64,000 nt of DNA from a virus (IMGVR_UViG_2871003000_000003:1-64000); one strand, 5' to 3'. Shown: positions 60,893 to 64,000, numbered from the stretch's first letter. Numbers and translations: made by a program. The notes: a model not told the origin generated them from the sequence alone.

Positions 60893-60963
60893 TTGTGAAT
60901 AAAGGATTCGAACCTTTTCTAATGCTATATACCGCATCGTGCTACCATTTACACTAATCCACA
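60893..60963 (-). tRNA. tRNA-like element / pseudo-tRNA with aberrant anticodon arm
   Basis: Acceptor TGTGGAT/ATTCACA, D arm GTGT-AAATGGTA-GCAC, T arm AAAGG-TTCGAAT-CCTTT; anticodon arm ATGC-GGTATATA-GCAT; no encoded CCA. Confidence 0.7.
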
Positions 60964-61173: not shown

Positions 61174-61548
61174 TTAGCCTTCTAACATTCTCAATTCCAT
61201 AACAAGAGCTGTAAGTTCTATCTCATTCTTTTTGATTAACGACTTAAGTTCATTGATTTTATCAATACGTTTTTTCTCTTCTTTTTTTCTCTTCATATAT
61301 GCATTCATATTAACAACGCCGACTACCTGAGCTGTAGGATTTTCGCCATATACACTCACAGGTAAAATTACTTTTACCTTTCCTAATACTCTCCTATCTT
61401 TGTTTCTTGCATTTACAACCACAAGTGTATTATTCAAATTTGCTGTTCTAAGTAATTCATATTCTTCCTTATATAATGCAAATCCATAATCTTTTTTGTT
61501 ATGGTCTTCTAGTAAGTTCACAATTGCTACTAAATCATATCCTGTCAT
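61174..61548 (-). CDS. hypothetical protein
   Basis: AAGGAG SD, 124 aa. Confidence 0.7.
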   Translation of the reverse strand: MTGYDLVAIVNLLEDHNKKDYGFALYKEEYELLRTANLNNTLVVVNARNKDRRVLGKVKVILPVSVYGENPTAQVVGVVNMNAYMKRKKEEKKRIDKINELKSLIKKNEIELTALVMELRMLEG

Positions 61549-61659
61549 AGTTTTATTCTCCTTTTTAATCTAATAATTCTTTATCGATAATCTGTTTCCA
61601 TCCTTATATTTGTATAAATTACATCTTTTTCTATTTTTTATAATGCAGCTTTCGATCGC

Positions 61660-61889
61660 ATTTCAATCCTCATACTAATGTAAACTACATCTCCATTCCA
61701 TTCAGAAGTTCACAGGTGATATGCAATTTAAATCCTCATACTTATGTAAACTACATCATACAATGCCCCTGCTATGTTCTCATCTGTTTGCGATTTCAAT
61801 CCTCATACTTATGTAAACTACATCTTATTAAATCAGATGTTATTAAAACATACGGGTATTTCAATCCTCATACTTATGTAAACTACATC
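61660..61889 (-). CRISPR. CRISPR mini-array, 4 x 32-bp repeats, 3 spacers (34, 35, 33 bp)
   Basis: Repeats at 61660-61691, 61726-61757, 61793-61824, 61858-61889; minus-strand consensus GATGTAGTTTACATAAGTATGAGGATTGAAAT; the two leader-distal copies each carry one substitution. Confidence 0.95.
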
Positions 61890-62096
61890 ATCAAAAATAC
61901 ACAAATATGACATATCTATTTTATGTAACTTACACAATTCTAAGGTTACAAAAGCGTTATCCGTTTTCGTATATGTAAATAAATGATTACTACTCACTGA
62001 TTTCTTTTATCTACTTTAGTGCGAATAAACCGTATAACTTATGTTCACTTCATATTCGCACATGGCGGCGTTGAACCTGCAACCATGTATATGTAT
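61890..62096 (-). promoter_or_regulatory. CRISPR leader / possible RNA scaffold
   Basis: AT-rich 207 bp with 9-bp inverted repeat GTGCGAATA/TATTCGCAC (62019-62061) and further hairpins. Confidence 0.7.
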
Positions 62097-63501
62097 TTAA
62101 GCTATTTGCTTCTTATATTCTTTCTCTTTAGCCATATTCAAAATATTAATTGCAGCATTAATGTCTCTATCATGAATCGCTCCACATTCAGGACAAATCC
62201 AGCCTCTTATTTTTGTATCTTTTGTTTTTACGTTCACAAAACCACATTTACTGCATGTTTGTGTTGATTTTTTATATTGTCCAATTGCAACAACAGGTAC
62301 ACCATATTCTTCACCTTTTCTTTTTAATAAAGTAAGAATTTCTCCCATCGCCGCATCAGATAAATTATCATTTCTCACTCTTGTTTTTCTTGACATACAT
62401 ATCTTTAACCGACAAAGTTTCTATTCCAATAAAGTCTGATCTTTTTATAACTTCTAACACCATATTCTCCATATGATATTTTCTTTGTCGTGTTACCTTT
62501 CTTTCTAATTTTGCTTTTTTAACTTTTGTTTCTATGTATCTTTTAGAAGGCTTTAATTCAACATTTTCTTTTCTTAATTCACTTAACCTTTTCCTAAACT
62601 CAATATTGCTATACCCTTGCCTTCTGGATAATTGTCTATTTAACATCTCACGATGTTGACGAACACTTCCGTCTTTACCATTTTTGAATCTAGGATTATC
62701 ATATTTTGTTCCGTCTGATAAAGTCATCAAAGTTGAAATTCCAACATCAATTCCAATTTCTCTTTTCTCTTCTTCTACTTTCACAATCTTATAAATATCT
62801 TTCATACATAGCTGTAAAAAGTAATCACCACAATTATCTTTTTTTACAGTTGTTAATATTTGTTGTTTCTTATGTAAATTCACATATTCTTCAAAATTCA
62901 TCGTGCATGATGAATCAAACCAGATATTTTTTAGGCATCCTTTAATCCCCCTAATCTTTACCTTTCCGATTTTAGCTAAATTAAAATATGCTACATTTTT
63001 ATTCTCATCATTAAAGCTCATTTTTCTCAGAAATTCTTGATATGTATAACTTGTTCTCGGATGTTTCTTTGAATAATATGGAGGTTTACTGTTCTCAATC
63101 GGTCTTTTAACTCCCTTTCCGTTTGTTTTCTTATTAGAATTTTCTCCACTCACTTGAGCATCCAATCGCTTCGACAAATCACACAAGAAAACTCCATTCT
63201 CACCAGACAAAGCACCCGCTGGAATCAATTTAATGTCTTCTCTCCTACTTCTTAACACATCCAAATACTGTTTCTTTGCAATAGACTTTACATCCGGAAA
63301 ATGAACAGTTTGTCCTCCATTCTTTTTGTCTGGTCTTTCAATTGTATTAACTTTATTTTCAAACATATCATAAACAGCCATATTACATGCTTTATGTAAA
63401 GCTAAGATAATTCTATCTATTAATTCACTCTGTTCTTTATTTGGATACATTCTAAAATTGAAAGTATACACCGGTATTTTTATAACTTTTTCAACTAGCA
63501 T
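62097..63501 (-). CDS. TnpB-derived / Cas12f-like type V effector, about 467 aa if the one-base frameshift near 62397 is corrected
   Basis: N-terminal FRMYPNKEQ; RuvC-I GIDVG, RuvC-II IETL, Zn finger CSKC/CPEC, RuvC-III DRDINAA; AAGGAGG SD; adjacent array. Confidence 0.85.
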
Positions 63502-64000
63502 TTAACCAGACCTCCTTTTGCGACATTTCATAATTTAGTGTGTTTACAAAATCTTCTATTGCACACAAACAATATTTTGCATATTGCTTTGATTCCACAA
63601 TTAAATAGAAATCATCCATGTATCTTCCATAATATTTGACACCCAACTCTCCAGTTATAAAATGATCAAAACCAGACAAATATAATAAAGCAAATACCTG
63701 ACTAACTTGATTTCCAAGAGGCAAGCCATTTCCGCTTGTGCTATCAATAAATTTTTCACATAACCAGTACGTATCTGGATTAGATATAAAATATGAAACA
63801 ATATCTTTCAGAATATTATGATCAATATTATAGAAAAATTTTTTAATATCACCTTTAATAATCCAACAATCATATCCGTATTTCTGATATGCTAAATACA
63901 TTTGATATTTCAGACAATCCAAACCAAACAATGTTCCTTTTCCTATTTGTCCGGCATAATTCGTATATATAAATTCATTACTTAAAATAGGAAGAAGCAC
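63491..64000 (-). CDS. DGR-type reverse transcriptase; start lies outside the window, C-terminus appears truncated
   Basis: GKGT, KGDIKKFF..IDH, GLPLGNQVSQ (GxxxSQ), YGRYMDD; stops about 40 aa after YMDD. Confidence 0.85.
   Translation of the reverse strand: MLLPILSNEFIYTNYAGQIGKGTLFGLDCLKYQMYLAYQKYGYDCWIIKGDIKKFFYNIDHNILKDIVSYFISNPDTYWLCEKFIDSTSGNGLPLGNQVSQVFALLYLSGFDHFITGELGVKYYGRYMDDFYLIVESKQYAKYCLCAIEDFVNTLNYEMSQKEVWLNAS

What the first reader, a model, noticed from the sequence alone, without database searches (positions are those of the whole stretch)
63491..64000. DGR-type reverse transcriptase overlapping the start of the Cas12f-like gene
Seen: an RT with LPLGNQVSQ and YMDD overlaps the effector gene by 11 nt, and the effector's AAGGAGG SD lies inside the RT's last codons. 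RT-like sequence stops near 63530 (..FVNTLN), so motifs 6-7 and the thumb are missing. Known: GxxxSQ marks DGR RTs, whereas CRISPR-associated RTs are mostly other clades linked to Cas1 in type III systems. Inference: either the CRISPR cassette landed in and inactivated a DGR (more parsimonious), or an RT-effector-array operon is a conserved, undescribed unit.
Basis: partly seen in the sequence, partly recalled or inferred. Interest (0 to 1): 0.78.

Follow-up and report, generated by a model that had tools for sequence, protein, structure and literature searches.

The report
Deletion-truncated DGR reverse transcriptase beside CRISPR cassette
The reverse transcriptase of a phage diversity-generating retroelement lost its last 97 codons in a 363-bp deletion that fused it to a neighbouring mini type V CRISPR cassette, so the overlap is a scar, not a new RT-CRISPR operon.

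Summary
A DGR-type RT (LPLGNQVSQ, YMDD) on the minus strand ends 11 nt inside the effector gene. Its RT-like sequence stops at ...FVNTLN (residue 248, window 63533).

The window is the first 64 kb of a 165.8-kb gut provirus. Just beyond its end lie the RT start, a template repeat (TR), an Avd gene and a target gene. VR1 differs from TR at 15 adenines and one other base. A second target 16 kb away differs at 20 adenines only.

Relatives settle the interpretation:
- One metagenomic contig (L126) has the intact 345-aa RT, a 69-nt spacer, then the same effector and array.
- Our genome equals that arrangement minus exactly 363 bp. The missing part is 97 codons plus the stop and the spacer.
- Other relatives have the full RT without the cassette, the cassette without avd-TR-RT, or neither.

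So the cassette did not land in the RT, and no conserved RT-effector operon exists. The RT lacks motifs 6-7 and the thumb, and no second RT is in the record.

One point stays open. Four genomes with the identical scar carry at least three different VR1 patterns.

By-product: the effector is split (377 + 99 aa) in all its close relatives, and both parts are under purifying selection. This scan had already noted the same region on this DNA.

The parts
63533..64000 (-). RT-derived coding sequence of the DGR reverse transcriptase. The ORF starts beyond the window at 64276. Residues 1-248 are RT; those up to N248 lie here, including LPLGNQVSQ and YMDD.
   Evidence: It is 99.7% identical in DNA to intact relatives up to this point. 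The full-length relative hits bRT (PDB 8ub7) at E 4.2e-35.
63532..63533 (-). Deletion scar. Compared with contig L126, 363 bp are missing here: 97 RT codons plus the stop (294 nt) and a 69-nt intergenic spacer.
   Evidence: exact 20-mers on the two sides lie 363 bp apart in L126 (4607-4969); the same junction occurs in L003, L091 and L092.
63491..63532 (-). 13 codons plus the stop that the truncated RT frame reads out of the effector's leader. This is not RT sequence. It contains the effector's Shine-Dalgarno AAGGAGG (63511-63517) and start codon (63499-63501).
   Evidence: The same leader precedes the effector in L085, L122 and L126, where no RT frame runs into it.
62368..63501 (-). TnpB/Cas12f-like effector, large part (377 aa; RuvC-I D252, RuvC-II E361).
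   Evidence: Pfam OrfB_IS605. NCBIfam guided_TnpB scores 95.5 bits. dN/dS is 0.07 against loci L086-L089, whose effector is 89% identical in protein.
62097..62396 (-). Effector small part (99 aa; zinc ribbon and RuvC-III HDRD). It is in the +1 frame and overlaps the large part by 29 nt.
   Evidence: Pfam Cas12f1-like_TNB at 8.8e-21. The split is conserved in all relatives down to 53% identity. dN/dS is 0.03-0.06.
61890..62096 (-). Conserved non-coding scaffold (tracr-like) and leader. The candidate anti-repeat is at about 61922-61946.
   Evidence: 92% column identity across loci whose coding DNA is about 86% identical. Anti-repeat:repeat pairing co-varies in L093 and L095.
61594..61889 (-). 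CRISPR array: five 32-nt repeats with a period of about 66 nt. The last repeat is degenerate. There are four spacers.
   Evidence: Spacer content differs between relatives.
61565..61593 (-). Relic of the 3' end of a 210-aa lipoprotein-like gene that lies between cassette and orf124 in relatives. This marks a second deletion.
   Evidence: compare L098 8593-9225 and L086-L089.
61174..61548 (-). orf124, the conserved right flank of the variable cargo slot.

Best explanation
The RT fragment is the 5' three quarters of a genuine DGR reverse transcriptase. The layout on the minus strand is target gene with VR1, then Avd, TR and RT, with a second target (VR2) 16 kb away. In this group of roughly 160-kb human-gut phages or prophages (host not identified), the slot between the DGR and orf124 carries interchangeable cargo. 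It may hold nothing, a radical-SAM gene, a lipoprotein gene, or a TnpB-like type V effector with tracr-like scaffold and mini CRISPR array. In an ancestor like contig L126, the cassette sat 100 nt behind an intact RT gene. A 363-bp deletion then removed RT codons 249-345, the stop codon and the 69-nt spacer. The deletion ends share only an imperfect 6-of-9 similarity. It joined RT codon 248 to the effector's 31-nt leader, so the RT frame now reads 13 foreign codons, crosses the effector's ribosome-binding site and stops 11 nt inside the effector gene.

Shown: the anatomy, the scar and the set of alternative states in relatives.

Inferred:
- The truncated protein cannot make cDNA, because it lacks the end of the palm (motifs 6-7) and the thumb. 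In the Bordetella enzyme these hold the template:primer duplex and the 'Thumb Ring' RNA.
- The DGR is therefore dead in cis, and only recently. Avd, TR and RT 1-248 show no decay.
- The effector is still translated from its own start, on a transcript that now probably begins at the DGR operon's promoter.
For: - DGR identity. TR and VR1 differ at 15 adenines plus one T>G; TR and VR2 at 20 adenines and nothing else. Avd hits PHROG 3206 at 5e-18. bRT is the best solved relative of the full-length form, E 4.2e-35.
- Truncation. Relatives L004-L007 (98% identical) and L126 have 345 aa and continue with LELNGKTQIIPFKNGIKFCGFH... where ours diverges.
- Scar. Exact flanking 20-mers lie 363 bp apart in L126: 294 nt of RT coding sequence with its stop, plus 69 nt of spacer.
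- The same spacer-to-cassette junction is seen in L085 and L122 from other samples.
- No other RT or RT fragment is in the record.
- Alternative states are tabulated.
- avd-TR-RT(1-248) is 99.7% identical to intact relatives, 4 differences in 1,445 nt.
- Role of the thumb: bioRxiv 10.1101/2023.10.23.563531.
- No promoter-like site on the minus strand lies just upstream of the effector.
Against: - The intact-RT-plus-cassette state rests on one metagenomic contig (L126, 62.5 kb). A chimeric assembly cannot be fully excluded. However, its spacer-cassette junction is independently seen in four other contigs.
- Four genomes with the identical scar carry at least three unrelated VR1 patterns that differ only at TR-adenine sites, in otherwise near-identical DNA. 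This is not what a long-dead DGR predicts. It needs recombination or an RT supplied in trans.
- Loss of RT activity is inferred from homology, not measured.
Confidence: 0.85

Rival explanations
1. RT, effector and array form a conserved functional operon, for example an RT that serves the CRISPR system. The short RT would then be its native form.
For: The genes are co-oriented and overlap by 11 nt. The identical arrangement recurs in L003, L091 and L092. L126 also has RT and effector adjacent.
Against: The four copies share one scar and are near-identical, so they count as one event. The cassette occurs without any RT in L085-L089, with no RT in four records of 157-164 kb and one 14.6-kb fragment. 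It also occurs without RT in L122, L124 and L125, and in unrelated phage contexts (L127, L093, L095-L097). The same RT occurs full-length without the cassette (L004-L008). The RT belongs to a complete DGR with its own Avd, TR and two VRs. No cas1 is in the record.
Confidence: 0.03
2. The cassette inserted directly into the RT gene by transposition or illegitimate recombination, replacing its 3' end together with the downstream radical-SAM gene.
For: Against L005 and L007, 1,957 bp of cassette stand in place of 1,348 bp holding the RT 3' end and the radical-SAM gene.
Against: L126 shows the cassette behind an intact RT. Ours differs from it at the left edge by a clean 363-bp deletion. L085 and L122 keep the 69-nt post-RT spacer in front of the cassette, so that junction predates the truncation. 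No TnpA, IS ends or target duplication were seen.
Confidence: 0.07
3. The DGR is still being used. VR1 in scar-bearing genomes is re-written by an RT supplied in trans from a co-infecting or co-resident relative with an intact, 99.7%-identical DGR. Much less likely, the truncated RT itself does this.
For: Ours, L003/L091 and L092 share the scar but have different VR1 patterns. Ours differs from L003 at 20 VR1 positions, all at TR-adenine sites but for the one T>G in our own VR1. The 600 nt upstream differ at 0-2 positions, and the rest of the locus at about 0.15% outside mosaic patches. The L003/L091 pattern shares 14 substitutions with L126, as expected for the pattern frozen at the deletion. 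Ours and L092 look re-randomised.
Against: Homologous recombination with RT-proficient relatives would give the same picture and leave no trace, because the flanks are identical. Clear mosaic patches show that recombination is common. L107 and L109 lack avd-TR-RT altogether yet also differ at 18 VR positions with identical flanks. No read-level data could be obtained.
Confidence: 0.2

Closest known systems
Bordetella phage BPP-1 DGR (mtd-avd-TR-brt; bRT structure PDB 8ub7)
   Same: The order is target-Avd-TR-RT. The RT has the [LIV]GxxxSQ motif and bRT is its best solved relative (E 4.2e-35 for the full-length form). TR and VR differ only at adenines apart from one base. The 3' ends of TR and VR are identical and then diverge.
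   Different: The RT here stops after residue 248 and lacks motifs 6-7 and the thumb. The host phage is a roughly 166-kb gut provirus.
CRISPR-associated reverse transcriptases (RT-Cas1 / Cas6-RT-Cas1 of type III systems, e.g. PDB 7kft)
   Same: An RT gene lies directly next to CRISPR components.
   Different: There is no cas1 in the record. The RT is of the DGR clade with its own Avd, TR and VRs. The adjacency is not conserved and is the product of a deletion. The 7kft match is only E 2e-8, against 4e-35 for bRT.
Miniature type V effectors that descend from TnpB (Cas12f, type V-U such as C2c8, and the recently described TranC 'transposon-CRISPR intermediates')
   Same: The neighbouring effector is about 470 aa in total, with a RuvC triad and zinc ribbon. 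It is followed by a conserved scaffold RNA with an anti-repeat and by a short CRISPR array. It has no adaptation genes.
   Different: It scores below every curated Cas12 model. It is encoded in two overlapping ORFs in nearly all close relatives and is carried by phages. I did not test whether it falls in a named TranC or Cas12 subtype.
Decayed or RT-less DGR loci
   Same: A VR-bearing target gene persists after loss of RT function. Relatives show every stage of loss.
   Different: Here the loss can be dated as recent and traced to one 363-bp deletion for which an intermediate is in hand.

Membership tests
Diversity-generating retroelement (DGR) | RT of the DGR clade with motif-4 [LIV]GxxxSQ | tested here: met
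   LPLGNQVSQ is in the ORF. The full-length 98% relative hits bRT (PDB 8ub7) at E 4.2e-35, far better than group II intron or retron RTs.
Diversity-generating retroelement (DGR) | Template repeat and variable repeat(s) that differ at adenines of the template | tested here: met
   The TR is 82 nt with 23 A. VR1 has 15 A-site differences and 1 other. VR2 has 20 A-site differences and 0 other.
Diversity-generating retroelement (DGR) | Accessory protein Avd next to TR | tested here: met
   PHROG 3206 'Avd protein of DGR' scores 5e-18. NCBIfam DivGenRetAVD scores 34.8 bits, below its cut-off of 80.
Diversity-generating retroelement (DGR) | Complete RT (fingers, palm motifs 1-7, thumb) | tested here: not met
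   97 C-terminal residues are missing. They align to bRT residues about 243-307. No second RT is in the record.
Diversity-generating retroelement (DGR) | Current mutagenic homing | tested here: inconclusive
   VR1 differs among genomes with the same scar. Recombination explains this equally well.
CRISPR-associated RT (RT-Cas1 type) | RT fused or adjacent to cas1 | tested here: not met
   Pfam Cas_Cas1 finds nothing in the 165.8-kb record.
CRISPR-associated RT (RT-Cas1 type) | RT-CRISPR linkage conserved in relatives | tested here: not met
   The cassette occurs without the RT and the RT without the cassette.
Type V CRISPR effector (Cas12f-like / TnpB-derived) | RuvC-like nuclease with zinc-ribbon TNB domain | tested here: met
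   Pfam OrfB_IS605 and Cas12f1-like_TNB. D252 and E361 are invariant. HDRD and two CxxC motifs are in the 99-aa part.
Type V CRISPR effector (Cas12f-like / TnpB-derived) | Conserved association with a CRISPR array and a tracr-like anti-repeat | tested here: met
   An array follows the gene in 11 loci down to 53% identity. Cognate anti-repeat:repeat duplexes are best in the divergent loci L093 and L095.
Type V CRISPR effector (Cas12f-like / TnpB-derived) | Score above a curated Cas12 subtype model | tested here: not met
   Cas12f2 scores 34 bits (cut-off 450) and C2c8 59 bits (cut-off 350). The best match is guided_TnpB at 95.5 bits (cut-off 100) for the large part alone.
IS200/IS605 transposon (TnpA-TnpB) | Y1 transposase and transposon ends | tested here: not met
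   No Y1_Tnp match in the record. No terminal structures were seen around the cassette.

The most novel reading that the evidence does not exclude
Scar-bearing phages, which cannot make their own RT, still get VR1 (and perhaps VR2) re-randomised. A closely related co-infecting phage with an intact DGR would supply RT in trans. The retained Avd-TR-target module would then work as an RT-less beneficiary of a helper's enzyme, rather than as a fossil.
Probability: 0.15. Interest if true: 0.55.

Novelty: new member of a known kind. Interest (0 to 1): 0.3.

Why it matters
The apparent RT-CRISPR operon would have been a new kind of system, but it is not one. The overlap is the scar of a small deletion in a cargo hot spot of a gut phage lineage, and this removes a tempting false lead.

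What remains useful:
1. This is a clean natural series of DGR decay: intact, truncated, deleted, each with and without a CRISPR cassette. It can be used to ask how long variable repeats keep changing once the RT is gone.
2. The neighbouring phage-borne type V system has an effector that is conserved as two ORFs. That is worth its own study.

Tried and rejected
- I looked for the missing RT C-terminus and for a second RT in the whole record. None was found.
- I tested whether cassette and DGR are incompatible, because at first every cassette genome lacked a working RT. This is rejected. L126 has both intact. Cassette-less relatives also lose avd-TR-RT (L103, L107-L109). One has a frameshifted RT (L098).
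- I considered the 69-nt spacer as a terminator whose loss would change expression. Its fold is no better than shuffles (z -0.67), and the scan found no terminator there in our genome.
- Spacer targets: no match in the own genome, in the fetched loci or in GenBank phages.
- Host or donor search in representative genomes: two scans found nothing.
I did not pursue it by other means.
- VR2 in another scar-bearing genome: the L091 record is not held.
- Rfam: only a sub-threshold RT-2 RNA match between TR and RT (23.5 bits against 40) and a tRNA.
I redid it from references.

Full report
**Where the finding lies.** The window is bases 1-64000 of a 165,772-bp IMG/VR provirus record with 32.7% G+C. 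I fetched the adjoining DNA as L002, where window coordinate = L002 + 60000. Everything relevant is on the minus strand.

**Checking the observation.**
- The ORF that runs off the window end is 261 aa and spans 63491-64276.
- It contains LPLGNQVSQ and YMDD. It matches Pfam RVT_1 at 5e-12 and PHROG 1423 'Reverse transcriptase' at 1.5e-86.
- Its stop is at 63493-63491 and the next gene's ATG at 63501-63499, an overlap of 11 nt. AAGGAGG is at 63517-63511.

**It is a real DGR.** Upstream in the same direction lie:
- a 254-aa target gene (64966-65730) with VR1 at 64985-65066;
- an Avd gene (64503-64907; PHROG 3206 'Avd protein of DGR' at 5e-18; NCBIfam DivGenRetAVD at 34.8 bits, below its cut-off);
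- an 82-nt TR at 64396-64477.

TR has 23 adenines. The full-length form of this RT finds the Bordetella phage enzyme bRT (PDB 8ub7) as its best solved relative. That match is E 4.2e-35, against 4e-10 for group II intron RTs and 2e-8 for a Cas6-RT-Cas1.

**The RT is truncated.**
- An IMG/VR scan with the 261-aa protein found hundreds of relatives.
- The closest without the cassette (L004-L007, 98% identical) encode 345 aa. They continue after ...FVNTLN with LELNGKTQIIPFKNGIKFCGFH... and a Lys-rich helical tail, whereas ours reads YEMSQKEVWLNAS and stops.
- The missing 97 residues align to bRT residues about 243-307. This is the end of the palm and the thumb.
- In bRT the thumb contacts the template:primer duplex, and a 'Thumb Ring' RNA element around it is needed for cDNA synthesis (bioRxiv 10.1101/2023.10.23.563531).
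- Neither the missing part nor any other RT is present in the record.

**What sits next to it.**
- Downstream are a TnpB/Cas12f-like gene in two overlapping ORFs: 377 aa at 62368-63501, and 99 aa at 62097-62396.
- A roughly 200-nt non-coding stretch follows. It is more conserved than the coding DNA, at 92% column identity.
- Then comes an array of five 32-nt repeats at 61594-61889, whose last repeat is degenerate.
- The record has no cas1 and no Y1 transposase.

**How RT and cassette came to overlap.** Against L005 and L007, synteny breaks at the RT and resumes just before orf124. There, 1,957 bp of ours stand in place of 1,348 bp holding the RT 3' end and a radical-SAM gene. L008 has nothing in that slot and L098 has a 210-aa lipoprotein-like gene, so the slot is a cargo hot spot.

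The decisive relative came from the protein collection. Contig L126 (ENA ERZ27308828, 62.5 kb) carries target, Avd, TR and an intact 345-aa RT, then 100 nt later the same effector (97% identical) and an array. Exact 20-mers on either side of our junction lie 363 bp apart in L126. The missing piece is 294 nt of RT coding sequence with its stop plus a 69-nt spacer. The ends share only an imperfect 6-of-9 similarity.

The spacer-to-cassette junction of L126 is also present in L085, L122, L124 and L125. In these, avd-TR-RT is deleted instead. So the cassette first lay behind an intact RT, and a later small deletion fused them. The 13 foreign codons and the 'SD inside the RT' are simply the effector's own 31-nt leader. 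A second deletion, at the far end of the array, left a 29-nt relic of the lipoprotein gene.

**Is RT-effector linkage conserved? No.** States seen in this phage lineage:

| State | Loci |
|---|---|
| Intact DGR, no cassette | L004-L008 |
| Intact DGR plus cassette | L126 |
| Scarred RT plus cassette | ours, L003, L091, L092 (one event, identical junction) |
| No avd-TR-RT, with cassette | L085, L122, L124, L125; separately L086-L089, whose four records (157-164 kb) contain no RT |
| No avd-TR-RT, no cassette | L103, L107-L109 |
| RT frameshifted in a Lys run | L098 |

The cassette also occurs in unrelated phage or prophage contexts. These are L127 (71% identical), L095-L097 (62%) and a Blautia caecimuris prophage, L093 (53%). 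DGR loss is common here with or without the cassette, which also removes the idea that the two are incompatible.

**Age of the event.** From the target stop to the scar, our 1,445 nt differ from the intact relatives at four positions, 99.7% identity. Avd and TR are unchanged. The truncation is recent.

**An unexplained point.** The four scar-bearing genomes are near-identical. Ours and L003 differ by about 0.15% outside two mosaic patches, and the 600 nt before VR1 differ at 0-2 positions. Yet they carry at least three VR1 patterns. Ours differs from L003 at 20 positions, and L092 differs again. All these differences are at TR-adenine sites, apart from the one T>G in ours.

L003 and L091 share 14 substitutions with L126, as expected for the pattern present when the deletion happened. 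Ours and L092 look re-randomised afterwards. Two explanations remain. VRs may have been imported by homologous recombination from RT-proficient relatives; the flanks are identical, so no trace would remain, and mosaic patches show that recombination is frequent. Alternatively, homing may have used an RT supplied in trans by such a relative. L107 and L109 have no avd-TR-RT at all, yet also differ at 18 VR positions with identical flanks. That favours recombination, or repeated independent losses, as the general cause. I could not get read-level data.

**By-products on the cassette.**
1. The 377 + 99 aa split is present in every close relative. It is in the +1 frame at an A-run: A5 in ours, A7 in L086-L088.
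2. Both parts are under strong purifying selection. dN/dS is 0.07 and 0.03-0.06 at dS 0.6-0.8.
3. The same split recurs down to 47% protein identity. In the Blautia prophage (53%) it takes another frame relation, an ATGA stop-start overlap.
4. Unsplit forms (P0018, P0036) are interleaved with the split ones. P0018 is 72% identical to the split P0027.
5. A conserved ATG heads the small ORF in all split forms. I therefore favour two separately translated subunits over +1 recoding, but did not test it.
6. The scaffold carries an anti-repeat whose pairing with the 5' half of the repeat co-varies in the divergent loci.
7. Spacers turn over quickly. L126 and ours share none, and ours and L003 differ in the leader-proximal spacer. 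No targets were found.

**Verdict.** The 'cassette inactivated a DGR' reading is right in outcome, but the mechanism is a 363-bp deletion between neighbours, not an insertion. The 'RT-effector-array operon' reading is refuted. The thing itself is an ordinary, recently disabled DGR. Interest is low to moderate, and comes mainly from the well-resolved decay series, the VR puzzle and the split effector next door.

Noticed in passing
window 62097-63501 (-); also L003, L085-L089, L093, L096, L097, L122-L127: The TnpB/Cas12f-like effector is encoded as two overlapping ORFs (377 + 99 aa) in all close relatives and in homologues down to 47% identity. The split falls just after RuvC-II. Both parts are under purifying selection (dN/dS 0.03-0.07). 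The frame relation is +1 at an A-run in most, but an ATGA stop-start overlap in a Blautia caecimuris prophage. Unsplit forms are interleaved with the split ones. This looks like a naturally split two-subunit effector or a recoding site, not a dead gene.
   Followed up: partly
window 61890-62096 (-): The roughly 200-nt stretch between the effector stop and the first repeat is more conserved than the coding DNA. It has a GTGCGAAT...ATTCGCAC stem with G-U-preserving changes, and an anti-repeat that co-varies with the repeat's 5' half in distant relatives. This is a tracr-like scaffold directly behind the ORF, as in TnpB omega RNAs.
   Followed up: partly
window 61594-61889; arrays in L003, L091, L086-L089, L126, L122: Spacer content turns over fast. 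Effectors that are 97% identical carry completely different spacers. Ours and L003 differ only in the leader-proximal spacer, and L091 lacks one internal unit. The phage has no cas1 or cas2. No protospacers were found in the own genome, the fetched loci or GenBank phages.
   Followed up: partly
record 80998-81079 (-), 17 kb beyond the window end: There is a second variable repeat of the same DGR, with 20 differences from TR, all at adenines. It lies in a second target gene that is also present in RT-intact relatives.
   Followed up: partly
L005 9148-10101 (and L004, L006, L007): In relatives the cargo slot holds a 317-aa radical-SAM protein (Pfam Radical_SAM 2.7e-15). It has weak, sub-threshold likeness to MoaA and to prokaryotic viperins, so it is a possible defence or counter-defence gene.
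   Followed up: no
P0010-P0014 (protein collection, 66% identical to the effector): A sister group of 440-448 aa is unsplit. It has lost the RuvC-I aspartate (GVRIG instead of GIDVG), the zinc-ribbon cysteines and the RuvC-III HDRD. It is probably a nuclease-dead RNA-guided derivative.
   Followed up: no
L086 4636-5823 (and L087): A separate, canonical 395-aa TnpB element has inserted between the effector's Shine-Dalgarno sequence and its start region in two relatives.
   Followed up: no
window 60893-60963 (-): A tRNA gene (Rfam tRNA, 46.3 bits) lies just downstream of the locus. A 487-aa GmrSD-like protein (N-terminal domain, below the Pfam cut-off) lies at record 66536-67999.
   Followed up: no
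record 64267-64387 (-): There is a sub-threshold match to Rfam RT-2 RNA (23.5 bits against 40) between TR and the RT start. That is where the DGR RNA's RT-binding spacer region is expected.
   Followed up: no
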